Shown: in pieces, positions 2 through 55,410 of the stretch
Position numbering within the stretch: position 1 is the first letter of the stretch
Layout: every line of letters begins with the position of its first letter
From: Candidatus Altiarchaeales archaeon
Lineage (GTDB): Archaea; Altiarchaeota; Altiarchaeia; IMC4; SCGC-AAA252-I15
DNA length: 64,000 nucleotides
Assembly (NCBI GenBank): GCA_014727915.1
Contig: WJMO01000011.1
Location: 1 to 64,000, forward strand
Reading direction: 5' to 3'
Translations under genes and position numbers: made by a program
The notes under the pieces: model-generated
Seen by the model: only the letters and a program-made list of their open reading frames with translations
What the model was told of the DNA's origin: nothing
The model's database searches: none

Positions 2-6319
<6,318 letters not shown>

Positions 6320-38776: not shown

Positions 38777-40886
38777 TTGTTAGCCTCAGATACCCTAAAA
38801 CGTTCACTGCGCAGACAAGCGCGCAGACGGTTAATATTCCCACTGCGGGTATTAAAAAGACGCTGACCAGCATGCACCCTATGAATGCGCCGAGGAAGTC
38901 GAGGCTGTAGAGTGTTCCCGCGGTCTCCCCTGGCGTTTGCTGCCCTTTATTCGCCCTCGCCGCCAGGGGGAAAACCGACCCCACTATCGACCCCAACGCG
39001 GCTGTAATCAAGGGGAAGATTACCTGTGCGGAGAACTGTGCCATCGGCGCGGCCTTCACGGTGTTCAACGACATGATGACGGCTGCCAGGACCAGCGGAT
39101 AGGCTGTGGCGGCTGCTATCATCCGCGTCAGGCGTCTTCTTTCCCCTCCCAGTTTCCTGTTGGCCCTATGGGCTCCCCACGCCAGCCCTACCATGAAAGA
39201 CGTCACTATCAAACCCACCTGGTGGTATACGAACCCGTAAAGTGCCTGGAATGAGATTAGCAGCACAACCTCCAAGGCGGTGCCTGTGAACCCGACACCC
39301 ATTATGTTAGCTTTCAACGGCTCCAGCCTGAAGTACAATATGGCGGCTGCCAACCCGAAAGCGACGGCAAAGTGGGGCAGGTATCCTCTCATGTTGAAGT
39401 AGGTCATCCAATACCTGAGGTGGTGGTAGTATGCCGTAGGCTTAAGGTCCCGGTTTAATTCTCCGCCTGAGGCGATGTTCTCCTCCAGGTAGCTGATCCT
39501 CTCGTCGTTGAGCGTTCCAACCAGGTAGTTCTCGTTCACATAGTGTGTTTCAACCCCTGAATCCCCTACCAAACGCCCTATGCCCGTCTCCAAACCCGAA
39601 TCCGACGCGAGGTATATGTTCCTCCCTCCTGGTAGTGCGAGGACTTCGGCGAATGCCTCAGTTAGCGTCGCGTATACGCCCGCGTTCAACATCCTCACCT
39701 CCTCGTTCATGTAGTTCTCCGACCCGCTAACTCCCGTTGAGAACACGCCTCCAGGGCTCAATATCCTCTTCACTTCACTGTAGAACTCGAGGGTGTAGAA
39801 CCTGTTCAACTGGGCTGTGGTGGGGTCTGGCAGGTCCACGATGACTACATCGTACATGATGGGTGAGGTTTTGACGTAGATCCTCCCGTCCATGTTGTGC
39901 ACGTTCACCCGCGGGTCTTCAACCCCGGTTTCTCCAAGGTACTCCCTCGCTAATCTTATTATCTCCGGGTCTAGTTCGACGTAGTCGACCTGGCTGACGT
40001 CATACTTCAGTATCTCCTTCAACGTGCCCGAGACCCCTCCGGAGATCAGGAGCACGTTGTCTGCCTTGTCCCGCTGGGACATTGGGTAGTGGACAGTCTC
40101 CTCGGCTGATACCACGTCGCCGGTGCTGAACAATGGCAGGTTGTTCTCGTAGAAGTTCACCTGCCCTGACGATTCGGAAACGACGAGGTTCCCATAGCGT
40201 GTGTTCACCTGCTCCAGAACATGCTCGCCCTGGAACCTGATGCTGTCCGTCACGTCCTGGAGGTCGACCGCGAACGCGAATGACACTATCATAAGGCAGA
40301 TAATTGCAGACCCTATCCTCCACCGTCCCCCGATAGAGTAAAGTCCCGCCGCTGACGCGAGCCCTGCCACATAGGCTGTCTGGAAGGAGTCCAGCAGGTT
40401 CACCAGGAGGAAGGTGAACGCGAGCCCTCCGAGTATGTCACCGGCGGAGTCGAGGATGTAGCCCCATCCTATTCCCTCGGCCTTCCGGTCTTCCGCGATT
40501 ATCGCGCATACCAGCGTGATCTGGACGCCGTAGAGCATGCAGTAGGGGCCGAGTGTCAGAGCAAGCGAACCCAGGATATGGGCCAGGCCTGCCATCTCAC
40601 CCCTGACGGTGAGGACGGAGTCAACGGTGTTGGAGACGTAGACTGAAGCCGGGATCAGGAGGGCGCCGAATGCCAGAGTAAATGCGAACGCGGTCCTGGA
40701 GTCCTTTACTTTCACCTTGGCTGCGGTGTGGCTGCCGAGCCCGACCAGTGCCATCCATGCTCCGAGGGCGAGGCCGAAGACGAGCTCGTTCCCGTAGAAG
40801 ATGTTGAGGAACTCCCTGAGGAATGTGAGCTGGGCGACCATGGACGCAAAGCCTATCATAACCGCGGCAAAACCGTATTTGGACAT
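38766..40886 (-). CDS. Membrane-fused spermidine-synthase-like (SAM-binding) protein
   Basis: TM bundle, then EETVHYPM, VLLISGG, YVELDPEII, DGR and YDVVIVDLPDP...NRFYTLEFY, then a second TM bundle. Confidence 0.85.
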   Translation of the reverse strand: MSKYGFAAVMIGFASMVAQLTFLREFLNIFYGNELVFGLALGAWMALVGLGSHTAAKVKVKDSRTAFAFTLAFGALLIPASVYVSNTVDSVLTVRGEMAGLAHILGSLALTLGPYCMLYGVQITLVCAIIAEDRKAEGIGWGYILDSAGDILGGLAFTFLLVNLLDSFQTAYVAGLASAAGLYSIGGRWRIGSAIICLMIVSFAFAVDLQDVTDSIRFQGEHVLEQVNTRYGNLVVSESSGQVNFYENNLPLFSTGDVVSAEETVHYPMSQRDKADNVLLISGGVSGTLKEILKYDVSQVDYVELDPEIIRLAREYLGETGVEDPRVNVHNMDGRIYVKTSPIMYDVVIVDLPDPTTAQLNRFYTLEFYSEVKRILSPGGVFSTGVSGSENYMNEEVRMLNAGVYATLTEAFAEVLALPGGRNIYLASDSGLETGIGRLVGDSGVETHYVNENYLVGTLNDERISYLEENIASGGELNRDLKPTAYYHHLRYWMTYFNMRGYLPHFAVAFGLAAAILYFRLEPLKANIMGVGFTGTALEVVLLISFQALYGFVYHQVGLIVTSFMVGLAWGAHRANRKLGGERRRLTRMIAAATAYPLVLAAVIMSLNTVKAAPMAQFSAQVIFPLITAALGSIVGSVFPLAARANKGQQTPGETAGTLYSLDFLGAFIGCMLVSVFLIPAVGILTVCALVCAVNVLGYLRLTSGK

Positions 40887-40925
40887 TGTCTGCTCTTATA
40901 TTATTTTCTGATAATATTATGTACC

Positions 40926-41447
40926 ATGTTCTCCGACATTATAAGGGTCGTGTGGTTCATTCTGCCGGCTTATGTGGCGAACTCCATCGCCATAGACGTG
41001 TCCGGCGTCCCGTTCCTCAAAAAATACGATACGCCAATGGACTTCGGGAGGTCAGTGGGCGGCAAGCGGATTCTCGGGGATGGGAAGACCTGGAGGGGGT
41101 TCATATCAGGGGTGCTGGCCGCTGTCCTGACTGGTTACCTCCAGCAGTCCTATCAGGCGGACGGGTTCGTTCAGATGACGCCTTTACTCGGGTTCCTGCT
41201 GGGTTTCGGGGCTTTAGGGGGTGATGCGGCGGCTTCTTTCATAAAGCGGAGGACCGGCTTGGGCAGGGGGCATCCCGTGTTCCTCCTGGACCAGCTCGAC
41301 TATGTTTTCGGCGCCTTCCTGGCGGCCTCATTAGTTGTTCCCCTGGATTTTCCCCCTCTTTTTTTAGCTTGTTTAATAACTTTACCCATCCACTACATAA
41401 GCAATATAGTGGCGTGGTTGTTGAAGTTGAAGCCTAAACCCTGGTAA
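40926..41447 (+). CDS. carS: CDP-archaeol synthase
   Basis: LPAYVANS, PMDFG, RILGDGKTWRG, GD...SFIKRR and LLDQLDY motifs. Confidence 0.92.
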   Translation: MFSDIIRVVWFILPAYVANSIAIDVSGVPFLKKYDTPMDFGRSVGGKRILGDGKTWRGFISGVLAAVLTGYLQQSYQADGFVQMTPLLGFLLGFGALGGDAAASFIKRRTGLGRGHPVFLLDQLDYVFGAFLAASLVVPLDFPPLFLACLITLPIHYISNIVAWLLKLKPKPW

Positions 41448-41448
41448 A

Positions 41449-42801
41449 GTGGATTATGAAGCTATAGTAGTGGGGGCTGGTGTGAGCGGTCTTCTGTCAG
41501 CGTTGGCTCTGTCCAAGGAGGGGAAGAACGTGCTCGTGCTCGAACGGGATGGTGAGGTGGGCGGTAACCTCCGCACCTACGAGGTTGACGGCTGGTGGGT
41601 TGACACGGGCCTTCACGCGATCACGCACGTGGACGACGGCCCGTTGACGAAGCTGATGGACGACTACTTCGACGTTATACCGAGGTTCCTCCCCTACGGC
41701 AACTACCACATCCGCACCCGGGAGAAGCTTGTGGTTTTCCCTTGGACGATGCAGGCTTGGGTGAACTTTGACGTCCTGCCGCAGAATGACAGGTTCCAGC
41801 TTATGAGCATACTCGGCGCCTCCGTCGCATCCAGCATCTTCGGCTCGGTGGACAAGAACCAGAGCGTCTACGACTTCCTGAAGAACAACCGGTTCAGCGA
41901 CAAGACTTGGCGGTTCATCGACACCTTCAGCTATTTCATGAGCGGGAAGAACATGCGCAAGACCCCCGTGTGGAGGCTGATGAAGGGGGCCCGTTACATC
42001 CAGGAGAACGAGAGCGAGTTCATCGGCGACAAGGTTGTCGGCGGAATCGCCAATGTGGCCAAACTGCTCGCCTATGACGGCAGCTACCACCAGGCCTACC
42101 CGAAGCTGGGAGCTGGGGCGGTGACTGACTGTATCGTCAGGTCTTTCCCCAAGGGCAAGGTGACTGTGAAGACCTCTGAGGAGGTGAAGGCGTTGGATTG
42201 CAGGGATGGGAAGGTGGTTGGCGTCGAAACGGATAACGACAGTTACGCCTCGGATTTGACTGTATACTCTGGTTACATGAGGGACCTTCCCGGGCTTTCC
42301 GGGGAATTCGACGAAGACTTCAGGGAATCAGTAGGCTCGTTGGAGCAGAGCACGTCCATCACAGTGTGGCTGGGGTTGGATGAGGTTCTGCCAGAGTTCG
42401 ATTACATGGGTGCGGAGGTCTGGTTCGAGGAGGGCAAGTCCTACTGGGGCATGTCCACCAGCAGATACAACCAGTCATTCGCTCCGGAGGGCAAGCAGCT
42501 TGTGGGTTTCACCGCGATCATAGAGGGCGGCCGGGAATCTGAGGAGAAGGCGCTGATCGAGTCAATCTACACTGCCGTCCCGTCCGCCGAGGATCACGTG
42601 GAGTTCAGGCACGCGCAGGTCACCATACCTGAGAAGGCGGCGATTACCGTGGGCTCCAGGTTCCCTGGGCAGAAGGCCCCCTTGGATGGGCTCTACCTGG
42701 TGGGGACGGACACGGACATCCGCAGCATGGGCGTTACCAGGGCCGCGTTCTCGGTGGTTGAGATGCTCAAGATACTGAAGGGAGAAGGGAGGCTAACATG
42801 A
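41449..42801 (+). CDS. FAD-dependent oxidoreductase (phytoene-desaturase-like)
   Basis: VVGAGVSGL..A..L...G..V.VLE....GG, VDTGLH and GLYLVGTD motifs. Confidence 0.82.
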   Translation: MDYEAIVVGAGVSGLLSALALSKEGKNVLVLERDGEVGGNLRTYEVDGWWVDTGLHAITHVDDGPLTKLMDDYFDVIPRFLPYGNYHIRTREKLVVFPWTMQAWVNFDVLPQNDRFQLMSILGASVASSIFGSVDKNQSVYDFLKNNRFSDKTWRFIDTFSYFMSGKNMRKTPVWRLMKGARYIQENESEFIGDKVVGGIANVAKLLAYDGSYHQAYPKLGAGAVTDCIVRSFPKGKVTVKTSEEVKALDCRDGKVVGVETDNDSYASDLTVYSGYMRDLPGLSGEFDEDFRESVGSLEQSTSITVWLGLDEVLPEFDYMGAEVWFEEGKSYWGMSTSRYNQSFAPEGKQLVGFTAIIEGGRESEEKALIESIYTAVPSAEDHVEFRHAQVTIPEKAAITVGSRFPGQKAPLDGLYLVGTDTDIRSMGVTRAAFSVVEMLKILKGEGRLT

Positions 42802-44042
42802 AGTTAACGCTGCCATACGGTGATTCGACAACGGAGATTGAGGTTGACGATGACCGGGTGCAGGCTTACATCGAGCCGGCCCACTTCGACAAGCGGGACT
42901 TGAAGGATCTTTTACGGGAGTCTTTGGAGGACTCATACGCCCTGAGCCTTGAGGAATTCCTAAAGGGCAAGAAGTCCATACTGTTGGTTGTGAACGACCT
43001 GACCCGCCCCACACCCACTGCGAAGGTGTTGGAGGTTCTCCTGCCCTTGTTGGGTGACAGGGAGTTGAAGTTCATCATCGCCACCGGCTCTCATAAGCCG
43101 CCGGGTAAGCCGGGGTTGAAGACCATACTCGGCGAAGGCGTCTACGAGGCTCATAAGAAGGAGGTTTACAGCCACGAGGCCAAGGACGACGTGTTCCTAA
43201 GGTATGCGGGGGAGACCTCGCGGGGTAACAGCATCTACTTGAACAAGATGCTATGGCTCGTGGACGGGGTAATAAACATCAACAGCGTGGAGCCCCATTA
43301 TTTCGCGGGTTTCACCGGCGGCCGGAAGAGTTTTCTACCGGGTGTGTCCAGTTATAAGACGATCACCAAGAACCATTCGTTCGCTTTGGAGGAGGGGAGC
43401 CAGCTGTGCAACCTGGAGGGGAACCCCGTTAACGAGGACATGGAGGAGGCCGCCGCATTGGTCCCCAAGCCGATCTTCAGCTTCAACCTGGTGTTGGACG
43501 CGGACAACGACGTGGCCGGCGTTTTCGCTGGCGGGTTGAGGGAGTCTTTCCGGGCGGCCTGCGAGTTCACCCTCACAAAATACACGTTCTCGTTGGAGGA
43601 GAAGGCGGATGTTGTGCTGGCTTTTGTGGAGCGGCCGATGAGCAGGGACCTCTACCAGACTCAGAAGGTCATCGAGCCCTCGAAGCTCGCGTTGAAGGAG
43701 GGGGGTGTTCTCATCTTCGTCTCTCAGTGTGACGGGGGCGTGGGCCCTGAAAACTACTATGCGCTGATGAGCTCGTCCACGAACCCTCATGAGATATTGA
43801 TGAGCATACAGCAGAAGTACAAGCTCGGCTACCACAAAGCCGCCCGCCTGTTGGAAATCGCCACCTGGGCGGACATGTACGCGGTAACCGACCTGGAAGA
43901 CCATGTCCTAGAGCGCGTCTTCATGAAACCCTTCAGCACCGCTCAGGAAGCAGTCGACACCGCACTCAAAGAAAAAGGCCCCCAAGCCAAAATAATCATA
44001 ATCAAAAACGCACTCATCACAATACCACAAAACAAAGCTTAG
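42798..44042 (+). CDS. larA: Nickel-pincer-dependent lactate-racemase-family protein
   Basis: NDLTRPTPT, ATGSH, EPHYFAGFTGGRKSFLPG, DLYQTQK and LGYHKA motifs. Confidence 0.88.
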   Translation: MKLTLPYGDSTTEIEVDDDRVQAYIEPAHFDKRDLKDLLRESLEDSYALSLEEFLKGKKSILLVVNDLTRPTPTAKVLEVLLPLLGDRELKFIIATGSHKPPGKPGLKTILGEGVYEAHKKEVYSHEAKDDVFLRYAGETSRGNSIYLNKMLWLVDGVININSVEPHYFAGFTGGRKSFLPGVSSYKTITKNHSFALEEGSQLCNLEGNPVNEDMEEAAALVPKPIFSFNLVLDADNDVAGVFAGGLRESFRAACEFTLTKYTFSLEEKADVVLAFVERPMSRDLYQTQKVIEPSKLALKEGGVLIFVSQCDGGVGPENYYALMSSSTNPHEILMSIQQKYKLGYHKAARLLEIATWADMYAVTDLEDHVLERVFMKPFSTAQEAVDTALKEKGPQAKIIIIKNALITIPQNKA

Positions 44043-44076
44043 GTCTCTGGATTTTTGAATTTCAGGTGAAATAGTA

Positions 44077-45243
44077 GTGGGGCTGTCAGGGACGGCGTGT
44101 TCTCTGGGGGTAAACCATTTTAAGATCACTGTGGATGGTAGTTCTCTTAAGGTTGAGGGTTGCGGTCAATCGGTCGAATCAACGGATTCCTCCTACTCCA
44201 ACACGGGGGAGATTTCGCTCCAAAACCATTATGGGACTTCCTCCTCCTTCGACAACATAACCGTGAGGAAATACGCCAACCCTACACCAACCTTTAATGG
44301 ATTCCACACCGAAGAAACCTACACTCCAAGCCCACCCCTGGGCGGCAGCGGAGAAATATACTATTATCACCCTGACCATCTTGGTTCAACTGTTGTGGTT
44401 AGTGACAGTGACGGTAATTTAGAAGAGAGAATTTCATATCAGCCGTTTGGCCTACCCCGTCAATCCAGTGAAGAATTGTACCAGTTCACTAGTCAGGAGT
44501 GGGAGGGAGACCTTGGATTCTATGACTACGGAGCTCGTCAGTATAATCCGACCCTTAGGAGGTTCATGCAAGCTGATAGTATAATACCAAATCCTTATAA
44601 TCCGCAAAACATGAACAGATACTCGTATGTACTGAATAATCCACTCATATATATTGATCCTACTGGTCATGTAGGCTTTATAGTTGGTTTAACGGGTCAG
44701 TCAGGTACATATCCTGTTGGAGTAGGTGATAGTATTACAGAAACACAAGGTTTTGCAGTTGCTATATCTTCTGATCTTAAAATAAGTTGGGGTTCTGTTA
44801 AAAGTGCTGGTGTGGGGGATATTACTCCTACTGGATCTGCAGGTTTATTATTATTACGATCAGATGGTGTAGAACATGTTAGTGGATTCTCTGGTTCCTC
44901 AACAGATGTTATGGGTGATACGAGTTTAATGCCTGGAACCAGTGTTGGATTAATTGGTGTTACCAATGAAGATGGTGAATGTTCTGGAACTGGCATGACA
45001 GTTTCATTAGACATTAATGCTCCTGCAGGGATATTTGGAGCTTCAGCGGGGGTTGTTAATTCTGAAACAATAGTTACTGAACATACAAATAATGGAGATA
45101 TAACACATGGTGATACCCAAGCTTATAATAATATATATTCGGAGGTCGCAAATGATTATTTAAGTGAAGCAGATGTTGCTGGGACACTTGAACGTTTAAC
45201 AGAAACTGCCAATACTATAATACAAAAAATCACGGGAGAATAA
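44077..45243 (+). CDS. 5'-truncated Rhs protein: short beta-domain remnant + RHS core + variable C-terminal (putative toxin) domain 1
   Basis: YYYHPDHLGS, YQFTSQEW, FYDYGARQYNP...RFMQAD, NRYSYVLNNP..YIDPTG, then a Gly/Ser-rich CT. Confidence 0.88.
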   Translation: MGLSGTACSLGVNHFKITVDGSSLKVEGCGQSVESTDSSYSNTGEISLQNHYGTSSSFDNITVRKYANPTPTFNGFHTEETYTPSPPLGGSGEIYYYHPDHLGSTVVVSDSDGNLEERISYQPFGLPRQSSEELYQFTSQEWEGDLGFYDYGARQYNPTLRRFMQADSIIPNPYNPQNMNRYSYVLNNPLIYIDPTGHVGFIVGLTGQSGTYPVGVGDSITETQGFAVAISSDLKISWGSVKSAGVGDITPTGSAGLLLLRSDGVEHVSGFSGSSTDVMGDTSLMPGTSVGLIGVTNEDGECSGTGMTVSLDINAPAGIFGASAGVVNSETIVTEHTNNGDITHGDTQAYNNIYSEVANDYLSEADVAGTLERLTETANTIIQKITGE

Positions 45244-45253
45244 CAAGAAGACA

Positions 45254-45919
45254 ATGGAAAATAAACACAATAATAGGTGGTTTCCATTTGCATTAACCTG
45301 GATAAATGGTATGATATATTCCCTAGTTGGTCTTTTACATAGATTTTATGATAAGACTATATTTATGGTGTTATTTGCTGTTCTTATTTTTTTAGAACTA
45401 CTTATTTTCAATTACTTAAAACAAAATAGAAAATATAATCATGACCTACTTAAAATATTCCGATTACCTAAATTATCAAAATTATACTTAATCTGCCAAA
45501 TTCCATTTCTTATACTGCTTATTGATTACAATCTAATAATCATGGCTATATTTATCAGTTCATTCATCTGGTTAGTCTTTGCTTATATGTTAAAATTTCA
45601 TAAACCATTCCAAAAGGAAATTAATTCACTCAACTTCACACATAATACACACCCTTTTTTAATACCTGAAGAACTATACAAAAAATTAATTCAATTTTTT
45701 ATTTCTCTACCTTTAATTTTTGCTATTTCCTTCCTACTTGTTATTCCGCCATTATTCAGATCATTTAAAGATTTGATTTTTTCACTATTTAGAAAAAATA
45801 TTTGTATATTAATAACAATCCCCCTTTTTGGGCTAATGTTATATTCATTAATATTTACTGCATATTTCCTATACACTCCCCTCTACTACTTTGCCTATTT
45901 CCTCTTTAAGAATACATAG
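45254..45919 (+). CDS. Multi-TM protein, putative immunity protein 1
   Basis: Very AT-rich and hydrophobic. It starts 10 nt after the Rhs-CT1 stop. Confidence 0.7.
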   Translation: MENKHNNRWFPFALTWINGMIYSLVGLLHRFYDKTIFMVLFAVLIFLELLIFNYLKQNRKYNHDLLKIFRLPKLSKLYLICQIPFLILLIDYNLIIMAIFISSFIWLVFAYMLKFHKPFQKEINSLNFTHNTHPFLIPEELYKKLIQFFISLPLIFAISFLLVIPPLFRSFKDLIFSLFRKNICILITIPLFGLMLYSLIFTAYFLYTPLYYFAYFLFKNT

Positions 45920-45970
45920 TATGGCATAACTCTTATCAATTGTGTCAGTTTATTTCACCGGAGTTGGGGT

Positions 45971-46678
45971 GATTTAGGCTTCTACGATTATGGTGCAAGA
46001 CAATACAACCCCACACTACGAAGATTCATGCAACCGGACAGTATTATCCCGGATTATTATAATCCGCAATCGTTGAACCGGTACTCGTACACACTGAATA
46101 ATCCGTTGAAATATATCGATCCAGATGGACATTTGGGTGTAGAGTATAGTAGTAGCTCTTCAATTGGTACTTTCCCAATTCCAATACCAAGTATTTCAAT
46201 TAGTCATGGTATTGGTCATACTATTGATTTCTCGACAGGGGATACTGATCAAGGTGTCAATTTGGCTATTTCAACTGGTGATACTACTCTCTCAGTCTCA
46301 GTAACCTTTAGTATTTCGGTTTTCCCAAATTATCAGGAGATGGGTGATTTTTCTGGAGAGACATCTGAAACTGGAGGTGAAGTACAAATATTTGGCATCT
46401 CGAGTTTATTGAGTGTTGGCAAGCAGGATATTTACTCTCGGGAAGGGCAAGAAACAAATATTAATGATAAAATCGGCGACCGTTATACACTTAGTATTGG
46501 TAAGGCTCCATTTCGCGCATCTGGAGATTATATGCATGTAGATACTACTTCAATCGAGGTAATGCCAGATGATTCAGAATCCTTAATAGATGTTCATCGA
46601 ACAGACAATAAGGGAAATTCAGGAACAGATTCTGAGACACATACCGAATCTGGACTAATAAAAACAAAAACCGGATAA
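45971..46678 (+). CDS. Orphan Rhs core fragment + C-terminal domain 2
   Basis: In-frame DLGFYDYGARQYNPTLRRFMQPD...NRYSYTLNNPLKYIDPDG. The first ATG (46028) is internal to the core. Confidence 0.82.
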   Translation, partial: DLGFYDYGARQYNPTLRRFMQPDSIIPDYYNPQSLNRYSYTLNNPLKYIDPDGHLGVEYSSSSSIGTFPIPIPSISISHGIGHTIDFSTGDTDQGVNLAISTGDTTLSVSVTFSISVFPNYQEMGDFSGETSETGGEVQIFGISSLLSVGKQDIYSREGQETNINDKIGDRYTLSIGKAPFRASGDYMHVDTTSIEVMPDDSESLIDVHRTDNKGNSGTDSETHTESGLIKTKTG

Positions 46679-46699
46679 TTAATTAACTAAGGTGGGGAT

Positions 46700-47035
46700 A
46701 TGGAACAAATAATCGAAAAAATATTTTACATATTAATCTCAATAGGTGCTCTAATTTTGGTTTATGCTCCTATGTTTTATAAAGAAAAACTCGCGAAATA
46801 TCTGAAAAACAATAAATTAGATATCTATAAATCTTTACCTTCAGATCAATCTTTTCCTTATATTCTTGAGAGTGATAAGATCGGTTGGATCTCATTTATA
46901 AAATATATCTTTTCGAAACACCCACAAGATGACAAAACATGCCTTAAATACAAAAGAATAATTATCTTTTCATGGATTGGAATAATCCTTCTATTTTGTT
47001 CTATTCTCTACCTATTATATGCTGGGTTTATATGA
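46700..47035 (+). CDS. Two-TM small protein, putative immunity protein 2
   Basis: SD-like aaggtgggg, a TM-loop-TM layout, AT-rich, and follows CT2. Confidence 0.75.
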   Translation: MEQIIEKIFYILISIGALILVYAPMFYKEKLAKYLKNNKLDIYKSLPSDQSFPYILESDKIGWISFIKYIFSKHPQDDKTCLKYKRIIIFSWIGIILLFCSILYLLYAGFI

Positions 47036-47044
47036 TTTCGTTCC

Positions 47045-47926
47045 ACATCACCCCAAGGCGGCAGCGGAGAAATATACTATTATCACCCTGACCATCTTGG
47101 TTCAACTGTTGTGGTTAGTGACAGTGACGGTAATTTAGAAGAGAGAATTTCATATCAGCCTTATGGGTTACCCCGTCAAGATAGCGAAGAATTGTATCAG
47201 TTCACCAGTCAGGAGTGGCAATCTGATTTAGGCTTCTATGATTATGGAGCAAGACAATACAACCCAACCCTTAGGAGGTTCATGCAACCCGACAACATAA
47301 TACCAGACTACTACAACCCACAAAGCCTAAACCGGTATTCCTATGTGGTAAATAATCCACTACTATATGTTGATCCAACAGGCGAGATTGGGATTTCTAC
47401 TGATGTTTATATCAATGTTGGATTAGTAAAAGGGTTTTCATTTTCGGTTGGAAATGTATATGCTATATCTGATTCTGGAGAACCATCATCAGGAAAGACC
47501 ATGTCCTTCAGTGGGGGTGACTCTTCGCCAACGGGGGCAGTAGGTATAAGAGTGACTTTTCATCCAAATATGCAAGATGTATCAGACAAGGCTGGATACT
47601 CAAATGAGGCTTTAGCTGATGCTAATCCCTTTACTATAGGTCCTGTTCCAATAACTGGTGGATATGGTCAGAGTTGGGAAAGTCAAGGAGAAGCTGATGG
47701 ATTGTTTTGTGTTGATAATACTATTCCTTCTTATGATAAAAATAGCAATAATGATCATTTCCTTACACTTGCCGTTGATACTAATACATTCCTGCCAGTG
47801 TCAGTAGGGACATATGAAACCTATACAGTGGTTATTGAAGATCCTTCACTTGATAATCCCACAACCCAAATTCATGATCCTGGTCCAGCTTTTAAACAAG
47901 AGGGGGGAGGTGGTGGTGCTGGATAA
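47045..47926 (+). CDS. Orphan Rhs core + C-terminal domain 3
   Basis: In-frame TSPQGGSGEIYYYHPDHLGSTVVVSDSDG...YVDPTG with no ATG at its 5' end (track start is the GTG at 47111). Confidence 0.85.
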   Translation, partial: TSPQGGSGEIYYYHPDHLGSTVVVSDSDGNLEERISYQPYGLPRQDSEELYQFTSQEWQSDLGFYDYGARQYNPTLRRFMQPDNIIPDYYNPQSLNRYSYVVNNPLLYVDPTGEIGISTDVYINVGLVKGFSFSVGNVYAISDSGEPSSGKTMSFSGGDSSPTGAVGIRVTFHPNMQDVSDKAGYSNEALADANPFTIGPVPITGGYGQSWESQGEADGLFCVDNTIPSYDKNSNNDHFLTLAVDTNTFLPVSVGTYETYTVVIEDPSLDNPTTQIHDPGPAFKQEGGGGGAG

Positions 47927-47965
47927 AAAGAAATTAGTTAATATGATATTAAATGAATATGATAT

Positions 47966-48298
47966 GTGATTGCCATGAACTATTTATATATGATTTTTGA
48001 TGCATTTTTTTATGTATTAATATTATGTGGTTTTATCCTTTTCTTCTATTCTCATTATCTAATACTGCAAGTGATATTCTATTCTTATAAAAAGAAGAAT
48101 AAATTAAATTTTTTATCAGAAAAACTAGCACCTTATTGGATATACCCCTGGTTATTGCGAAATGATCCAAACGACGACGAATATACGTTAAATATGAAAA
48201 ATAAAATTAGATTGTCTTTTCTATCCATGTTAATTATCTGTTTGTTATGCTTTTTTCTAATCCCATTTTTCAAATATAAATATTATGAATTATTCTAA
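47966..48298 (+). CDS. Two-TM small protein, putative immunity protein 3
   Basis: TM-loop-(DD...K)-TM layout like 46700..47035, and follows CT3. Confidence 0.72.
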   Translation: MIAMNYLYMIFDAFFYVLILCGFILFFYSHYLILQVIFYSYKKKNKLNFLSEKLAPYWIYPWLLRNDPNDDEYTLNMKNKIRLSFLSMLIICLLCFFLIPFFKYKYYELF

Positions 48299-48366
48299 TT
48301 ATCGCCCAATTACATGAGAGAGATTCGTTTTGTCCCTCCCGGTCTGATATATGTCCTATCATTTTT

Positions 48367-48462
48367 GAGGTATATTATTATCACCCTGATCACTTAGGAA
48401 GCACAGTAGTGGTTTCTGACAGTGATGGTAATTTGCATGAGAGGATATAATACCTGCCTTTT
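48367..48462 (+). pseudogene. Rhs-core remnant with in-frame stop
   Basis: Translates EVYYYHPDHLGSTVVVSDSDGNLHERI*YLPF. Confidence 0.85.
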
Positions 48463-48546
48463 TGGGGGTTTTTTTGTGATAGCTTTTCATTTTTATACAT
48501 ATGTTGTATGTATATTATACATATCATCATTTTTGGGTGTTTTGTG

Positions 48547-48804
48547 ATGGAGAGTGTTAGGGTTAATGTGTTGCTTCCGGAGAAGCTTTTGAGGGAGTCT
48601 AAAAGTCTTGTGGAGAAGGGTTATTTCAGTAATTTCAGCGAGATTGTCCGGGAGAGCCTTAGACGGGAGATAATTAACTACAAGATTGGGCTGGGTGAGT
48701 TGACAGAGAAAGACCTGGAATTGCTTGAATGGGTAAGGCATGAGAAAGCCGCGGGCAATATACTGTCTGAAAAGGATATGGCAAAACATGGTCTCAAAGT
48801 TTGA
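48547..48804 (+). CDS. Ribbon-helix-helix antitoxin
   Basis: MESVRVNVLLPEKL...LVEKGYFSNFSEIVRESLR is an Arc/MetJ/CopG pattern, and the gene overlaps the toxin start. Confidence 0.85.
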   Translation: MESVRVNVLLPEKLLRESKSLVEKGYFSNFSEIVRESLRREIINYKIGLGELTEKDLELLEWVRHEKAAGNILSEKDMAKHGLKV

Positions 48805-49093
48805 ACTATGTTACTCCCGATTCTTTGAAACGCAGTGGCTCGGCTTCGACGAAAAAACCAGATCGATAATCAAAGACAGGTTAAAGCTCATCAAACAGAA
48901 CCCCCTCCGATACGACACCCTCAAAGGATACACGAGAGTCCGGAAACTGAAGTTATCCCTTGAAGGAAAATACCAACGGCTACTCTACGCACTCCACATG
49001 CCCAAAACAAACCATATACTCATCCTAGGTGTATTCGACAGAGATAAAGGCTACCAAGAATTCGAAAGAAAATTCATAAAACTCAAAAAATAA
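48788..49093 (+). CDS. RelE/ParE-family toxin
   Basis: About 101 aa and basic, with F...W..FDEKTR..I..RL..IKQNP...LKG...RKL...RLLY....ILILGVFDR.KGY. Confidence 0.8.
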   Translation: MVSKFELCYSRFFETQWLGFDEKTRSIIKDRLKLIKQNPLRYDTLKGYTRVRKLKLSLEGKYQRLLYALHMPKTNHILILGVFDRDKGYQEFERKFIKLKK

Positions 49094-49097
49094 AAAC

Positions 49098-49183
49098 ACA
49101 CTCCAAGCCCCCAGGGCGGCAGCGGTGAAATATACTACCACCCCCCCAACCACCTAGGCTCAACGGCTGTTGTTAGTGACAGT
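49098..49183 (+). pseudogene. Terminal degenerate Rhs-core remnant
   Basis: Translates TPSPQGGSGEIYYHPPNHLGSTAVVSDS. The 13-mer acactccaagccc matches 44321. Confidence 0.8.
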
Positions 49184-49260
49184 AGTTTTCAGAGAGATTT
49201 TAAGATATTCAAAATAATTATTAGAATTTTATAAACTATTTTAACTTTTCTTTGAATAGT

Positions 49261-50235
49261 TTATGTTTTTTCTGCGATGGCGTTTATGTCGCTCATGATT
49301 GCGCTGCTGGTTTCTCGGGGTCCGGCTCCTGCTCCGATCAGGGTTATCTCTCCGGCGACGTCTGTGTCGACTAATACTGCGTTCAGGCTGCCGCCCACGT
49401 TCAGTGGGTGGTCCAGTGGCACCAGCCGGGGGCTCACCTCCTTCGCGGCAATATCCCCCACGAGTTTGATGGTGTACCCGTGTTCCTTCGCCAAGTCCAC
49501 CGCCTCAGGTGTCACGCCGGTTATCCCAACCACCTTCAAATCCTTGAACTTCACATCCATCCCCAGCGAGTTAGCCAAGATAACGACCTTGGCGGCGGAA
49601 TCGATGCCCTCGATGTCATAGGTCGGGTCCGTCTCCGCCAAACCCAACGTCTGAGCCTCCAACAGCGCAGCCTTGAAATCAACGCCCTCCTCCAGCATCT
49701 TCGTAAGTATGAAGTTGGTCGTCCCATTCAAGATGCCATAGACGTTCCTCGCCTTGTTACTCTTCAACTCCCGGTCCAACGTGTTAAGAACAGGGATCGC
49801 ACCCCCAACGGTAGCCTCGAACTTCAACATCACACCATTATCCTCGGCCAATTTCACCAGCTCACCGTAGGCCACCACCAACGGACTCTTATTGGATGTG
49901 ACAACGTGCTTCCCCGACTCCAACGCAGCCCGGATATGCTTCAAACCCGGCTCCCCAGATTTGATGTCGCCGGGCGTCAATTCCACAACGATGTCAGCGT
50001 CAACTTCATTAATCACATCCAATGTCTTCCGCTTGCCCCACCGGGGCTTCTCCTTCAGCAGCCTCTTCAAGTCAACGCCACTTTCATCCACGATGCAGCC
50101 GCTGTACTCGCAGACGGCCACGACCTTCACGTCCAAACCCCCCTTCTTCAAAGAGCTTCTCTTCTCAGCCAAGGTCTCCACCAATCCCCTGCCGATGTTC
50201 CCGTAGCCCACGATTACCAGGCGCAACACTTTCAT
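49261..50235 (-). CDS. hom: Homoserine dehydrogenase
   Basis: GYGNIG, HVVTSNK, FEATVGGAIP, GILNGTTNFIL, AETDPTYDIEGIDSAAK and GAGAGPRETSSA motifs. Confidence 0.96.
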   Translation of the reverse strand: MKVLRLVIVGYGNIGRGLVETLAEKRSSLKKGGLDVKVVAVCEYSGCIVDESGVDLKRLLKEKPRWGKRKTLDVINEVDADIVVELTPGDIKSGEPGLKHIRAALESGKHVVTSNKSPLVVAYGELVKLAEDNGVMLKFEATVGGAIPVLNTLDRELKSNKARNVYGILNGTTNFILTKMLEEGVDFKAALLEAQTLGLAETDPTYDIEGIDSAAKVVILANSLGMDVKFKDLKVVGITGVTPEAVDLAKEHGYTIKLVGDIAAKEVSPRLVPLDHPLNVGGSLNAVLVDTDVAGEITLIGAGAGPRETSSAIMSDINAIAEKT

Positions 50236-50726
50236 GCCGCCACCTCGTTTATGAACAGGAACCTCTTCTCCCGGCAGATGGTCTGGATCACGTCCATCAG
50301 CTTACCATGCTTGTTGTCGTCCACGTCCACCTCCATCAGCACAGCGGACTCCGCCTCTGGGTCTGTCATCCGAACGTCCACGTCACGGACCAGCCCCAAC
50401 TCGTTGATCCGGTCGATGGTGTCCTGGATGTCGTTGTCGATCACGTGACCCACGAAGATGAACGACAGGCTCCTCTTCTTATAGTACCTGTGACCCTCGA
50501 CGCGAACGTCCCTGACCCTCACCTTCTCCTTCTTCAACGCGCCGAGGATCCTCGACAGCGACTCCTGGTCCCGGACCTTGAACACAACATCCACTCCCAC
50601 AAGGCCCTTGCTTCCCCGGGAATGGAGCACGCTGACTATGTTACCCCCGTTCGCGGAGATGGGCTCCAACGCCCTCACCAGCATCCCAGGAACGTCCCTG
50701 AGACCAAGACTCACGTCAACCCGCAT
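50232..50726 (-). CDS. ACT-domain protein (archaeal allosteric regulator of homoserine dehydrogenase)
   Basis: LRDVPGML...LEPISANGGNIVSVLHSR and GHVIDNDIQDTIDRI. It overlaps hom. Confidence 0.85.
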   Translation of the reverse strand: MRVDVSLGLRDVPGMLVRALEPISANGGNIVSVLHSRGSKGLVGVDVVFKVRDQESLSRILGALKKEKVRVRDVRVEGHRYYKKRSLSFIFVGHVIDNDIQDTIDRINELGLVRDVDVRMTDPEAESAVLMEVDVDDNKHGKLMDVIQTICREKRFLFINEVAA

Positions 50727-50775
50727 TCTAACCCCTGGATATTTATTATCCCGTCTACCCTAAAAAGAACCCACG

Positions 50776-52800
50776 ATGCGCACTTTAGTGGTTACGGAGA
50801 AGCCCAACGTCGCGGAGAGGATAGCCAACAGCCTCGGCAAGGCAACGAGGAAAACACACGGGGGAGTCGCATACTACGAGGTCGGCGACACCGTCGTCGC
50901 CCCCGCAGTCGGCCACATATACGGGCTCAGGGAGAGGAAAAGCAAAGGCTGGGTGTATCCGGTCTTCGACATAGAATGGGCGCCCTCCTACTCCATCAAC
51001 AAGAGCAGCGCATTCACCAAGAAGTACCTGAACAACATCAAGCACCTGAGCAAAGACTGCCAGAGGTTCATCAACGCCTGCGACTACGACGTCGAAGGAG
51101 AGGTCATAGGATACAACGTGATCAAACACGCATGCGGGGCTGATCCCCTGTCCGAGAAGGTCCGGAGGGTGAAGTACTCGACCCTCACAAAGGACTCGAT
51201 ACTCAAGGCCTTCGAGAAGATCGGGCCCATCGACAAGGGGCTCGCCGACGCAGGCCTGGCGAGGCACAGCCTCGACTGGTACTGGGGTATCAACCTCTCA
51301 CGGGCGCTGAGCAACGCGGCCCGCAGCGCCAAACGATACGCCACATTGAGCATCGGCCGCGTGCAGGGGCCCACGTTGAAGGTGCTGGCGAAGAGGGAGC
51401 GGAGCATACAAGCCTTCAAGCCGGAGACATACTGGCAGGTGGAGATGCAATGCCGCAAGGAGACTGACTTCACCAGCATGCACGAAGCCGACAAGTTCAG
51501 CGAACAGGAGAAGGCCGACGCGGTCAAGGAGAAATGCGGCGACAAGGCCAGGGTCTCGGACGTGCAGAGCAGGAAGTACAAGCAGACACCCCCCTACCCC
51601 TTCGACCTCACCACATTGCAGACGGAAGCCTACAAGCACCTCAACATCGACCCCAGGCGGACGTTGGAGATAGCCCAGAGCCTGTACACCAACGCGTACA
51701 TCAGCTACCCGAGGACCAGCAGCCAGCAGATACCGGAGGACATAGACTGCCGGAAGATAATAACCGACTTGAAGAGGCAGGGCGACTACGGAGTATTATG
51801 CGAGAAGCTGCTGGAGAAGAAGAAATTGAAGCCCACCAACGGGAAGAAGAAGGACCCAGCCCACCCCGCAATACATCCGACGGGCGAGATGCCCGCCAGG
51901 CTGGACGCACAACACAAGAGAGTATACGACCTCGTAACAAGGAGGTTCCTCGCATCATTCGGCGAGCACGCGGTAAGGCAGAGCGTATCCGTGAAACTGG
52001 ACAACAACGGAGAAACATTCATCGCCAAGGGCAACACCACCGTCGAGAAGGGCTGGCACACATACTACGGCCCCTACGCCAAGTTCGAGGAGAACCTCCT
52101 CCCGGTTCTTGAGAAAGGCGACGACGTCGACGTCAGGGACGTGCTAGTCCATGAGAAGGAGACCAAACCCCCGAAGAGGTTCACCCCCGCGTCGATCATA
52201 AAGGAGATGGAGAAGCGGAACATCGGAACCAAGGCGACGAGGTCGCAGATCGTGGACATACTATTCCGCCGCGGATACCTCCACGGGAAGACGATAGAAG
52301 TAACCAAGCTCGGCTTGTCAGTGGTGGACGCCCTTAACAAGTACTGCCCGGAGGTGCTGAGCGACAAGCTCACCCGGAAGTTCGAGGAGGACATGGAGCA
52401 GATACAGGAGGGCAAGCTCACATCCGAGGAAGTCATAGACGATGGGCGCAGGACGTTGGAGAATATACTCGCCGAGTTCAAGGAGAACGAGCTGAAGATC
52501 GGCACCGCACTCGCCGACAGCATACTCGAGGCGAAGAGGCGGGCGAGCAGCCTCGGACCCTGCCCAGTCTGCAAGAACGACCTGGTAGTCCGGAAATCAC
52601 GGTACGGGGGGCATTTCATAGGATGCACGGGATACCCCAAGTGCACCCACACCTGGCCCCTGCCCAAAGACCCCGTTAAGAAGATCGGCGAGTGCAAGCA
52701 CTGCGGGTATGCGATGATGATAGTCATGCCCAAGGGCAAACGCAAATGGAGCTTCTGCGTCAACCAGGCCTGCCCCGGGAAAAAGAAGAAAACGAGATGA
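50776..52800 (+). CDS. topA: DNA topoisomerase IA
   Basis: TEKP, GH, ACDYDVEGEVIG, SIGRVQGPTL, ISYPRT, DPAHPAIHPT, IGTKATR and C-terminal Zn ribbons. Confidence 0.97.
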   Translation: MRTLVVTEKPNVAERIANSLGKATRKTHGGVAYYEVGDTVVAPAVGHIYGLRERKSKGWVYPVFDIEWAPSYSINKSSAFTKKYLNNIKHLSKDCQRFINACDYDVEGEVIGYNVIKHACGADPLSEKVRRVKYSTLTKDSILKAFEKIGPIDKGLADAGLARHSLDWYWGINLSRALSNAARSAKRYATLSIGRVQGPTLKVLAKRERSIQAFKPETYWQVEMQCRKETDFTSMHEADKFSEQEKADAVKEKCGDKARVSDVQSRKYKQTPPYPFDLTTLQTEAYKHLNIDPRRTLEIAQSLYTNAYISYPRTSSQQIPEDIDCRKIITDLKRQGDYGVLCEKLLEKKKLKPTNGKKKDPAHPAIHPTGEMPARLDAQHKRVYDLVTRRFLASFGEHAVRQSVSVKLDNNGETFIAKGNTTVEKGWHTYYGPYAKFEENLLPVLEKGDDVDVRDVLVHEKETKPPKRFTPASIIKEMEKRNIGTKATRSQIVDILFRRGYLHGKTIEVTKLGLSVVDALNKYCPEVLSDKLTRKFEEDMEQIQEGKLTSEEVIDDGRRTLENILAEFKENELKIGTALADSILEAKRRASSLGPCPVCKNDLVVRKSRYGGHFIGCTGYPKCTHTWPLPKDPVKKIGECKHCGYAMMIVMPKGKRKWSFCVNQACPGKKKKTR

Positions 52801-52802
52801 TG

Positions 52803-53978: not shown

Positions 53979-54015
53979 CGCATTAACAAATCAGGAAACG
54001 CGCGAATTAAAGCGT

Positions 54016-54267
54016 TCACGTGTTCAGCGGGTCTGTCAGCTCAACGGTGGTCGGGTTCTTCCGGTATATGACTCCCCGCTCCTGCAGCACCTTTATGGCC
54101 TTGCTGATCTCGTCCTTTTCGATGCCGTGCCACATGAGCTGCTCCTCGAGGAACCTGACCTTAGCAGTCTTGAGCTCGCTCATCAGCTCGCAGATTAAAA
54201 GCTTGCAATCCAATGCCAACCACCGGAACATAGTATTCGACAAACTCATTAAAAAGCTTGACATCAA
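54016..54267 (-). CDS. Small winged-helix-like protein
   Basis: GIEKDEISKAIKVLQERGVIYRKNPTTVEL is a typical wHTH recognition helix plus wing. Confidence 0.55.
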   Translation of the reverse strand: MMSSFLMSLSNTMFRWLALDCKLLICELMSELKTAKVRFLEEQLMWHGIEKDEISKAIKVLQERGVIYRKNPTTVELTDPLNT

Positions 54268-54293
54268 TTTGATAATAGATTAAAGAAGATAGG

Positions 54294-55310: not shown

Positions 55311-55410
55311 AAAACCCGTTATTTATAGAAAAATAAATATAATATTAAATAAACTGCGGTCTCCATGTTTCGGTGTTTGAACGGGGTATTGGAGAGGTTG
55401 TGGGTTTAAC

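What the first reader, a model, noticed from the sequence alone, without database searches (positions are those of the whole stretch)
44077..49183. Archaeal Rhs polymorphic-toxin cassette array
Seen: an AT-rich island in a GC-rich archaeal background with five successive copies of Rhs-core coding sequence. Three continue past the DPxG motif into different C-terminal domains, each followed by a small membrane-protein gene. Cassettes 2 and 3 lack a proper 5' start. Known: in bacteria, orphan Rhs-CT/immunity pairs are swapped onto a full-length rhs gene by recombination in the core, and DPxG marks the autocleavage site. Inference: this is a silent toxin/immunity reservoir for inter-microbial antagonism in an archaeon, where such systems are little characterised. 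No full YD-repeat gene lies in the window.
Basis: partly seen in the sequence, partly recalled or inferred. Interest (0 to 1): 0.82.

Follow-up and report, generated by a model that had tools for sequence, protein, structure and literature searches.

The report
Headless Rhs toxin-immunity cassettes, Altiarchaeota
This stretch of an uncultivated archaeon's genome holds spare toxin ends of the Rhs type, each with its own protective membrane-protein gene, but the large delivery gene that normally carries such toxins is missing, so it is an ordinary kind of microbial weapon locus seen in an unusual host with a previously undescribed toxin family.

Summary
A 5.2-kb island (44043-49260, GC 0.37 against 0.56-0.57 in the flanks) lies between archaeal housekeeping genes. 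It carries five copies of Rhs-core sequence: two full, one 3' partial and two 5' stubs. Three run through a DPxG motif into C-terminal domains (CTs), each followed by a small membrane-protein gene.

- The three CTs are one divergent family (20-34% identity), found in 4 of 61 genomes of the phylum.
- Two AlphaFold models give an eight-stranded beta-barrel closest to Rhodococcus equi Vap proteins (Z 7.5-8.3).
- Cassette 1 is also headless. It has no signal peptide and no YD shell, and its 85-residue head matches nothing.
- An RHH/RelE-like pair sits between stubs 4 and 5.
- No YD-repeat gene was found in the 1.81-Mb assembly (90.6% complete).
- In another genus of the same family, the same chromosomal spot next to hom-ACT-topA holds a full rhs gene of about 2000 residues with a signal peptide, followed by homologous orphan cassettes.

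Best reading: a tip-displacement array that has lost its delivery gene. It is probably kept for immunity or as spare parts.

Rhs toxins with cassettes are already described in archaea (Methanosarcina, PMC3482391). This is a new member of a known kind, with a new CT/immunity family. Interest is moderate.

The parts
44043..49260 (.). AT-rich island between the LarA-like gene (42798-44042, +) and homoserine dehydrogenase (49261-50235, -)
   Evidence: GC 0.367 against 0.563 and 0.573 in the flanks. No tRNA gene in 38000-56000.
44077..45243 (+). Cassette 1 ORF (388 aa, GTG start; frame open from 44059). It comprises a unique head (to 44332), Rhs core copy 1 (44333-44670) and CT1 (44659-45240).
   Evidence: TIGR03696 66.5 bits at residues 121-198. 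The head has no relative in any frame, apart from a weak match to the last third of PF06439 (E 0.022, below cut-off). No transmembrane or signal segment.
45254..45919 (+). Putative immunity gene 1, 221 aa, multi-pass membrane protein, GC 0.26
   Evidence: Hydropathy segments. No Pfam, NCBIfam or PADLOC family.
45920..46678 (+). Cassette 2: an open frame of 252 codons that starts right after the stop of gene I1. It holds the degenerate 3' two-thirds of the core plus CT2 (46121-46675). The first ATG is at 46028.
   Evidence: TIGR03696 positions 28-76, 53.8 bits in the six-frame search. Alignments.
46700..47035 (+). Putative immunity gene 2, 111 aa, two hydrophobic segments
   Evidence: 27% identical to I3, E 7e-5. 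Family alignment A5 with three relatives' genes.
47036..47926 (+). Cassette 3: an open frame of 296 codons that starts right after the stop of gene I2. It holds full core copy 3 (47049-47391) plus CT3 (47375-47923). The first start codon is GTG at 47111.
   Evidence: TIGR03696 65.3 bits. A 104-bp tract is identical to copy 1. CT3 is 34% identical to the CT of an orphan cassette in G011, E 4e-22.
47966..48298 (+). Putative immunity gene 3, 110 aa, two hydrophobic segments
   Evidence: Matches the gene after the CT3-like toxin in G011 (35% over 40 aa, E 1e-4).
48371..48465 (+). Core stub 4: the 5' 32 codons of the core, 75% identical to copy 3, followed by no CT
48547..48804 (+). Small ribbon-helix-helix-like gene (85 aa from the ATG at 48547), putative antitoxin
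   Evidence: Weak RHH matches only, all below cut-offs: RHH_8 E 0.011, RHH_1 E 0.083, ParD TIGR02606 E 5e-4. Overlaps the next gene by 17 nt.
48788..49093 (+). RelE-like gene, 101 aa
   Evidence: 18 relatives at 61-78% identity, 17 of them 101 aa long and one 102. JGI names 7 of the 18 'RelE of RelBE'; NCBI names 3 of the 18 Candidatus Altiarchaeota. No Pfam, PDB or PADLOC sequence match.
49095..49183 (+). Core stub 5: a linker plus the 5' part of the core, 81% identical to copy 1, one codex-length difference (one codon shorter), GC 0.57. It ends abruptly 78 bp before the hom stop codon.

Best explanation
The island is an Rhs 'tip' array: the conserved C-terminal core (the plug with the DPxG aspartyl self-cleavage site), a variable toxin end and an immunity gene, repeated three times.

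How it was built (inferred): new tips were inserted one after another by homologous recombination inside the core, pushing older tips downstream. The latest event placed cassettes 1 and 2 in front of cassette 3 and left a duplicated 113-bp core segment. Two older 5' stubs remain further down and bracket a RelE/RHH pair.

What is missing: in this genome the delivery gene, a Sec-exported YD-shell protein of about 2000 residues as seen in relatives, is absent. All three toxin ends are therefore headless.

What the toxins are (inferred from models): they belong to one lineage-specific family of about 185 residues, predicted to fold as a Vap-like eight-stranded beta-barrel. I infer that they act on the target cell's membrane by permeabilisation or ion leak, and that the small membrane proteins encoded next to them block this.

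What the locus does now (inferred): it most likely serves as immunity against neighbours that still fire these toxins, and as spare parts if a shell gene is regained.

Shown: the anatomy, the family relations and the synteny. Inferred: toxicity, the membrane target, immunity, and the order of events.
For: Core identity:
- TIGR03696 scores above cut-off.
- In alignment A2, D167, D194 and G197 are invariant. The Asp of the second DPxG-type motif is the catalytic residue in Photorhabdus Rhs1 (PMC8636562, passages read).

Recombination:
- 44333-44445 against 47049-47161 is 110/113 identical, including a 104-bp perfect tract.
- Identity then falls to 88/115 and 78/108, and is lost after DPTG.
- Upstream of the repeat the sequences are unrelated.

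No shell gene in the assembly:
- 0 PF05593 hits at E<=0.1.
- Only 3 TIGR03696 hits, all in the island.
- tblastn with 4 relatives' full Rhs proteins hits only the core copies, plus an FG-GAP protein.

Relatives:
- 10 of the 40 related genomes have the core. Frames of 1462-2175 codons occur in 4 genomes.
- Complete frames with signal-peptide-like N-termini occur in G012 and G019, and probably in G022.
- In G011, contig ends C11 and C17 overlap by 32 nt. Joined, they read: rhs (about 2000 aa), TM gene, orphan with a CT1-like end, 112-aa TM gene, orphan with a CT3-like end (34%, E 4e-22), 98-aa TM gene (I2/I3-like), a 5' core stub, then (after three further genes) hom (60%), ACT (54%) and topA (60%), as in the window.

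One CT family:
- Pairwise E values of 5e-4 to 7e-4 within the window.
- E values of 1e-6 to 4e-22 against G011.
- Alignments A3 and A4.

Fold:
- Two models, pLDDT 69.8 and 69.1, pTM 0.67 and 0.59.
- Best hits of 48161 chains are VapB 4cv7 (Z 7.5 and 8.3, 107-108 of 111 residues, rmsd 3.2-3.3) and VapG 5aeo (Z 7.5 and 8.2).
- The next hits are OmpA-type barrels at Z 5.2-5.8.
- VapA binds and permeabilises liposomes (PMC10100859, abstract and section list read).
- The strands alternate between an aliphatic/aromatic face and a Gly/Ser/Thr/Ala face with few charges. VapD is described with a glycine-rich 'bald' surface (PMC4118825, search listing only).

Membrane-protein genes follow 6 of the 7 CTs of this family whose downstream DNA I saw. 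Five of these belong to one family, A5.
Against: - The assembly is 90.6% complete in 13 contigs. Rhs genes break assemblies (G011 shows this), so a shell gene may be unassembled.
- All three CT frames are intact over their full family length, which pure relics need not be.
- The fold rests on two models that share one shallow alignment of 9 rows. Their pLDDT is about 70, and Z 7.5-8.3 is at the level the tool calls common for a best hit.
- No sequence link to Vap (PF05526) or to any PDB chain.
- CT1 alone found one hit (E 1.3e-4) among 1.84 billion representatives. It found none on proteins of 680-2000 aa. So this CT family has not been seen on a complete full-length Rhs; the G019 gene carrying it is cut by a contig end.
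- Only 1 of 9 relatives with at least 8 kb beyond hom has Rhs there, and the same-genus genome G001 has none. Shared ancestry of the site is therefore not proven.
- No expression data.
Confidence: 0.6

Rival explanations
1. One reading: a silent reservoir of orphan tips that are recombined onto a full-length rhs gene lying elsewhere in this genome, in the unassembled tenth.
For: Completeness is 90.6%. Rhs loci sit at contig ends in relatives, and G011's locus is split over two contigs. The CT frames are intact. The 104-bp identical tract shows recent recombination.
Against: No YD repeat or further core was found anywhere in the 1.81 Mb. In G011 the main gene lies directly upstream of the orphans, but here that position is taken by a housekeeping gene 35 bp away. 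A distant main gene would need the same core, and none was seen.
Confidence: 0.2
2. The headless cassettes are expressed inside the cell from internal starts and act as toxin-antitoxin-like modules, for stress, phage or growth control, as reported for the Salmonella orphan rhs.
For: PMC7043789 reports that a Salmonella orphan Rhs lacking the delivery part functions as a type II TA module (title and start of the abstract in a search listing). Cassette 2 has an ATG 31 codons before its DPDG motif, and cassette 3 has a GTG in the core. A bona fide TA-like pair sits in the same island.
Against: No promoter or expression evidence. If the toxin acts on membranes from outside, it need not work from inside. 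No PADLOC family matched.
Confidence: 0.1
3. A decaying relic with no selected function: leftovers of a lost Rhs locus on their way to deletion.
For: Two stubs without CTs, a degenerate 5' part of copy 2, and no delivery gene. The same-genus genome G001 has only a 50-codon core fragment with a stop.
Against: Six intact ORFs without frameshifts across 4.2 kb of DNA at 24-44% GC inside a 56% GC genome. A recent recombination tract.
Confidence: 0.12
4. An assembly chimera or bacterial contamination placed inside an archaeal contig.
For: Strong GC contrast. Rhs is mostly a bacterial system. No read set could be listed to check coverage.
Against: Archaeal genes lie on both sides within one contig. 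The same CT/immunity family lies next to hom-ACT-topA in an independent assembly. The CT family was found only in this archaeal family, in 4 of 61 genomes of the phylum. The RelE-like gene has relatives named Altiarchaeota. Relatives' Rhs loci are also low in GC, at 0.39-0.45.
Confidence: 0.03

Closest known systems
Orphan rhs-CT/rhsI modules and C-terminal displacement arrays of enterobacterial rhs loci (Poole et al. 2011, PMC3150448, search listing seen; Jackson et al. 2009, recalled)
   Same: 5'-truncated core fragments fused to variable CTs, each with its own immunity gene, lined up on one strand. Homology ends at the DPxG motif. Signs of recombination in the core.
   Different: No full-length rhs gene upstream or elsewhere in the assembly. 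The first cassette carries an unrelated 85-residue head. Two members are 5'-only stubs without a CT. A RelE/RHH pair lies inside the array. The host is an archaeon, and relatives' main genes carry Sec-type signal peptides and not T6SS (PAAR/VgrG) adaptors.
Methanosarcina acetivorans RHS polymorphic toxins with toxin and immunity cassettes (Zhang et al. 2012, PMC3482391, passages read)
   Same: Archaeal Rhs-type polymorphic toxin with downstream cassettes. TIGR03696 and PF05593 both match that genome in the tool's control set.
   Different: A different phylum (Altiarchaeota). The shell gene is missing here. The CT and immunity families are not among those named in the passages I read; the paper's tables were not fully read.
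Rhodococcus equi Vap proteins (VapB 4cv7, VapG 5aeo, VapD)
   Same: Predicted eight-stranded beta-barrel of about 110 residues with one short helix between strands 4 and 5, and a small-residue-rich face. VapA is membrane-active.
   Different: No sequence similarity. Vaps are stand-alone secreted or surface proteins of an actinobacterial pathogen, not Rhs tips, and have no immunity partner. The likeness rests on models only.
Membrane-targeting Rhs/CDI toxins with membrane immunity proteins (Tse5-CT of Pseudomonas aeruginosa, PMC10684867, abstract seen in a listing; CdiA-CT EC93, recalled)
   Same: A toxin end released from an Rhs core, with small integral-membrane immunity proteins.
   Different: As I recall, those toxins are helical or glycine-zipper pore formers. 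This family is predicted to be all-beta.

Membership tests
Rhs/YD-repeat polymorphic toxin (full-length) | RHS repeat-associated core domain (TIGR03696) ending in DPxG | tested here: met
   66.5 and 65.3 bits (cut-off 32.5) for cassettes 1 and 3. Cassette 2 scores 53.8 bits in six-frame search over positions 28-76. Motifs IDPTGH, IDPDGH, VDPTGE. The Asp and Gly are invariant in A2.
Rhs/YD-repeat polymorphic toxin (full-length) | YD-repeat shell (PF05593 repeats, about 1000 or more residues) | tested here: not met
   0 PF05593 matches at E<=0.1 in the whole assembly, which is 90.6% complete. tblastn with four relatives' Rhs proteins hits only the core.
Rhs/YD-repeat polymorphic toxin (full-length) | N-terminal export or trafficking domain | tested here: not met
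   No hydrophobic segment in the cassette 1 protein. No family match for the head except a sub-threshold one. Complete Rhs frames in relatives G012 and G019 start with signal-peptide-like N-termini.
Orphan rhs-CT/immunity module | 5'-truncated core fragment plus CT plus downstream immunity gene, on the same strand | tested here: met
   Cassettes 2 and 3. Cassette 1 has a foreign head.
Orphan rhs-CT/immunity module | Lies downstream of a full-length rhs gene sharing the core | tested here: not met
   Not in this assembly. Met at the corresponding locus of G011.
Orphan rhs-CT/immunity module | CT is toxic and the neighbouring gene protects | not testable with these tools
   Needs expression assays.
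Vap family (R_equi_Vir, PF05526) | Sequence match to the family model | tested here: not met
   No PF05526 hit for 6 of 6 CTs at E<=10. A profile of A3 finds no PDB chain at E<=10.
Vap family (R_equi_Vir, PF05526) | Eight-stranded closed beta-barrel fold | tested here: inconclusive
   Two models of moderate confidence. VapB and VapG are the top hits at Z 7.5-8.3 and cover 101-108 of 110-111 residues. In the CT1 model they stand 2.5 Z above the next hit.
RelE/ParE-RHH type II toxin-antitoxin pair | Family-model match of toxin and antitoxin | tested here: inconclusive
   Toxin: no Pfam, PDB or PADLOC match, but JGI names 7 of its 18 homologues RelE. Antitoxin: RHH and ParD matches, all below cut-offs. 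The genes overlap by 17 nt.

The most novel reading that the evidence does not exclude
The CTs are a new class of small beta-barrel, membrane-inserting toxins, Vap-like or OMP-like. They would be fired by Sec-secreted Rhs proteins between Altiarchaeota, a lineage reported to have a double membrane whose outer-membrane components are unknown (PMC4500143). The two-helix immunity proteins would block insertion. If so, this would be the first effector-level handle on the archaeal outer membrane. It would also be a non-T6SS route of Rhs delivery in archaea.
Probability: 0.12. Interest if true: 0.8.

Novelty: new member of a known kind. Interest (0 to 1): 0.45.

Why it matters
Warfare between archaea is known mostly from genome surveys. 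This locus, read together with its intact counterpart in a sister genus, gives a concrete and testable set: three toxin ends of one undescribed family, each with a cognate small membrane protein. It also documents that Rhs loci are common in Altiarchaeota (10 of the 40 related genomes) and use signal peptides instead of a type VI apparatus. If the predicted Vap-like barrel and the membrane target hold, it would link an unexplained virulence-protein fold of Rhodococcus equi to a toxin-immunity system in which mechanism and resistance can be studied genetically. The headless state is a clear example of an immunity-only remnant, which bears on how such loci decay.

Tried and rejected
- Complex prediction of CT3 with I3, using alignments A4 and A5: no verdict (score 0.04, mark 0.32). 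This is evidence neither way.
- The look-up of sequencing runs for 43300-49900: none was listed and no RNA holder was listed. No read check of junctions, variants or expression was therefore possible, and read laying was not used.
- The search for related loci in genome contigs with the cassette 1 protein: 50 pattern matches, none confirmed.
- phmmer of CT1 against 1.84 billion representatives: one hit, a repetitive 3346-aa protein at E 1.3e-4, not followed up.
- ESM Atlas with CT1: low recognition (1459), only unnamed clusters.
- Foldseek against the PDB with the CT3 model: nothing at E<=0.001.
- CT1-like ends on proteins of 680-2000 aa: none at E<=0.01. The tool calls this weak evidence.
- The head of cassette 1: no relative in the relatives' loci, in the own genome, or in any frame. 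The PF06439 match (E 0.022) is below cut-off.
- I considered an integrase-type island with att repeats (copy 1 and copy 5 as 90-bp direct repeats). I rejected it because there is no integrase or tRNA and the repeats are coding core sequence.
- The antisense ORF in G001 (L018 8593-9765) looked spurious on translation.
- Makarova et al. 2019 (mBio, archaeal polymorphic toxins; DOI recalled) is not held in the library. Whether it lists Altiarchaeota Rhs or this CT family is unchecked. A search for 'Altiarchaeota' together with 'Rhs' found 0 papers.

Full report
WHAT IS THERE

The window is the first 64 kb of an 85-kb contig of a 1.81-Mb, 13-contig assembly rated 90.6% complete. Between a LarA-like gene (42798-44042, +) and homoserine dehydrogenase (hom, 49261-50235, -) lies a 5.2-kb stretch with GC 0.367. 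The flanks have GC 0.563 and 0.573. The flanks are archaeal housekeeping genes: a CDP-archaeol-synthase-like gene, an FAD oxidoreductase and LarA-like on the left; hom, an ACT-domain gene and a topoisomerase on the right. The left block is syntenic with a same-genus genome at 65-73% protein identity.

All island genes are on the + strand:
- Cassette 1: 44077-45243, 388 aa.
- Membrane gene I1: 45254-45919, 221 aa.
- Cassette 2: open frame 45920-46678.
- I2: 46700-47035, 111 aa.
- Cassette 3: open frame 47036-47926.
- I3: 47966-48298, 110 aa.
- A 32-codon core stub: 48371-48465.
- An RHH-like gene (48547-48804) overlapping a 101-aa RelE-like gene (48788-49093).
- A last core stub: 49095-49183.

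CHECK OF THE OBSERVATION

The Rhs core model TIGR03696 scores 66.5 and 65.3 bits (cut-off 32.5) on cassettes 1 and 3. In the six-frame search it scores 53.8 bits on cassette 2, covering only model positions 28-76. Stub 4 is matched by four relatives' Rhs proteins (E from 5e-8 to 4e-4). Stub 5 is 81% identical to copy 1 over 75 nt. Two core words occur three times each with up to 3 mismatches, against none in 100 shuffles.

The three long copies run through IDPTGH, IDPDGH and VDPTGE into about 185 further codons. The three downstream genes have hydrophobic segments of transmembrane length.

WHOSE GENOME

Earlier notes of this scan call the genome Altiarchaeales. I checked this only partly. The RelE-like protein has 18 relatives at 61-78% identity, of which NCBI names 3 Candidatus Altiarchaeota. 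A core hit is named Altiarchaeales (P0009).

NO DELIVERY GENE

The YD-repeat model PF05593 finds nothing in the assembly at E<=0.1. TIGR03696 finds only the three island copies. tblastn with four full-length Rhs proteins of relatives finds only the core copies, plus an FG-GAP repeat protein at 60270-62669.

Cassette 1 starts 35 bp after the LarA-like stop. Its first 85 residues match nothing in the relatives' loci, the own genome or any other frame. They show only a sub-threshold likeness to the last third of a ConA-like domain (PF06439, E 0.022). The protein has no signal peptide or membrane segment. All three toxin ends therefore lack the parts that export and encase an Rhs toxin.

The caveat is that a tenth of the genome may be unassembled, and Rhs loci break assemblies.

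RELATIVES

Ten of the 40 related genomes have the core. Four of them have frames of 1462-2175 codons. The complete ones begin with signal-peptide-like N-termini (G012 and G019). Their Rhs loci are also low in GC, at 0.39-0.45.

The most telling case is G011, in another genus of the same family. Two contig ends overlap by 32 nt. Joined, they read:
- an rhs gene of about 2000 aa;
- a membrane gene;
- an orphan with a CT1-like end;
- a 112-aa membrane gene;
- an orphan with a CT3-like end (34% identity, E 4e-22);
- a 98-aa membrane gene like I2 and I3;
- a 5' core stub;
- two secreted proteins and an FAD protein;
- hom (60%), ACT (54%) and the topoisomerase (60%), in the same order and orientation as in the window.

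The window's island thus sits where a complete Rhs locus sits in a sister genus. This is not general. Of 9 family genomes with at least 8 kb beyond hom, only G011 has Rhs there. In two genomes the FAD oxidoreductase abuts hom directly. The same-genus genome has neither the island nor this junction. An inherited locus with losses and repeated insertion at a variable spot both remain possible.

HOW THE ARRAY AROSE (INFERENCE)

Between copies 1 and 3, identity is 110/113 over 44333-44445. It is 88/115 and 78/108 further on, and nil after DPTG. Upstream of 44333 and 47049 the sequences are unrelated. This is what a single crossover of incoming DNA carrying the core's 5' part leaves behind: a duplicated segment around the insert, which here is cassettes 1 and 2, with the former tip (cassette 3) pushed downstream. 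It is the displacement pattern described for bacterial rhs loci (PMC3150448, search listing seen; Jackson et al. 2009, recalled).

Stubs 4 and 5 are 5'-only fragments. Stub 5 has host-like GC (0.57) and may be the oldest. The same kind of terminal 5' stub ends the G011 array.

THE TOXIN ENDS

The three CTs are not unrelated domains. CT1-CT3 and CT2-CT3 give E values of 7e-4 and 5e-4. CT1 matches both G011 CTs at E from 1e-6 to 8e-8. Nine sequences align end to end with shared motifs.

A profile of six of them finds the family in 4 of 61 genomes of the phylum, all in one family. There is no Pfam or PDB sequence match. Only one weak hit turned up among 1.84 billion representatives, and none on proteins of 680-2000 aa. 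In G019 the CT ends a frame that is cut by the contig end. That frame carries the same pre-core module as the relatives' full-length proteins.

AlphaFold models of CT3 and CT1 (pLDDT 69.8 and 69.1, pTM 0.67 and 0.59) both show eight long strands with a short helix after strand 4. Against 48161 chains, the best matches for both are Rhodococcus equi VapB (Z 7.5 and 8.3, 107-108 of 111 residues, rmsd 3.2-3.3 A) and VapG (Z 7.5 and 8.2). Outer-membrane-type eight-stranded barrels follow at Z 5.2-5.8.

These Z values are at the level the tool warns is common for a best hit, and the two models share one shallow alignment. I therefore treat the fold as likely a small closed beta-barrel and the Vap likeness as a lead.

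The strands alternate between an aliphatic/aromatic face and a Gly/Ser/Thr/Ala face with few charges. VapA binds and permeabilises liposomes (PMC10100859, abstract and section list).

Membrane-protein genes follow 6 of the 7 family CTs whose downstream DNA I saw. Five of these form one two-segment family with a conserved acidic loop motif. Together with the fold, this points to a membrane-directed toxin blocked in the membrane. That step is inferred, not shown.

WHAT THE LOCUS DOES NOW

Without a shell or signal, export by the route used in relatives is not available.
- Most likely (0.6 for the whole reading): the locus persists because its immunity genes protect against relatives that still deploy these toxins, and it can supply tips if a shell gene is regained.
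- An unassembled main gene: 0.2.
- Internal TA-like action, as reported for a Salmonella orphan (PMC7043789, search listing): 0.1.
- Pure decay: 0.12.
- Assembly chimera: 0.03. This is unlikely for the reasons given under the rivals.

COMPARISON AND NOVELTY

Rhs-type polymorphic toxins with cassettes were already noted in Methanosarcina acetivorans, and such systems were called rare in archaea (PMC3482391, passages read). Source names show Rhs-core proteins annotated in several archaeal phyla. The kind is therefore known.

What is new here:
- the host lineage;
- the Sec-type heads in relatives;
- the headless state, with an intact counterpart at the same site in a sister genus;
- a CT/immunity family that I found in no library.

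A search for 'Altiarchaeota' together with 'Rhs' found no paper. The main archaeal survey (Makarova et al. 2019, recalled) is not held, and supplements are closed, so prior listing of this family cannot be excluded.

The boldest reading not excluded concerns Altiarchaeales, which are described as double-membraned with unknown outer-membrane components (PMC4500143, passage read). A small barrel toxin aimed at that envelope would be of real interest. I give this 0.12.

VERDICT

This is a new member of a known kind. Interest is 0.45.

Noticed in passing
L022 3709-4761 and 4754-5617; L020 286-1788; L019 728-2416: Relatives' Rhs loci carry a recurring family of signal-peptide proteins of 288-563 aa next to the rhs gene. 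They may be accessory factors for export or attachment. None was found in the window's genome by tblastn.
   Followed up: partly
L022 785-1837; L025 5152-6399; proteins P0010, P0012, P0013, P0024: 'Mini-Rhs' proteins: a signal peptide, zero to a few YD repeats, the core and a CT, 350-580 aa in all. That is too short for a shell. They suggest that the core plus CT can be secreted without encapsulation in these lineages.
   Followed up: no
window 60270-62669 and 55411-60348: A 799-aa protein with six FG-GAP repeats and a CBM96/disaggregatase-like end, preceded by a 1645-aa ORF with no Pfam match.
   Followed up: partly
window 49184-49260: 78 bp of GC 0.23 sequence between stub 5 and the hom stop codon. 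The core homology ends abruptly at ...GTTAGTGACAGT.
   Followed up: no
L037 and L039 (G012, G002), 2130-3480: In genus g2 the FAD oxidoreductase, which lies left of the island in the window, abuts hom directly in convergent orientation. The hom 3' flank is therefore a rearrangement-prone spot in this family.
   Followed up: partly
L012 (G001:C21) 349-495: The same-genus genome keeps only a 50-codon Rhs-core fragment with an internal TAA, at a contig start and next to an AAA-ATPase-like gene.
   Followed up: no
L005, L007, L014 and proteins P0008, P0013, P0021: A second CT type in relatives' Rhs tips is rich in Gly/Ala hydrophobic stretches and looks like a glycine zipper. It is also followed by membrane-protein genes.
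   Followed up: no
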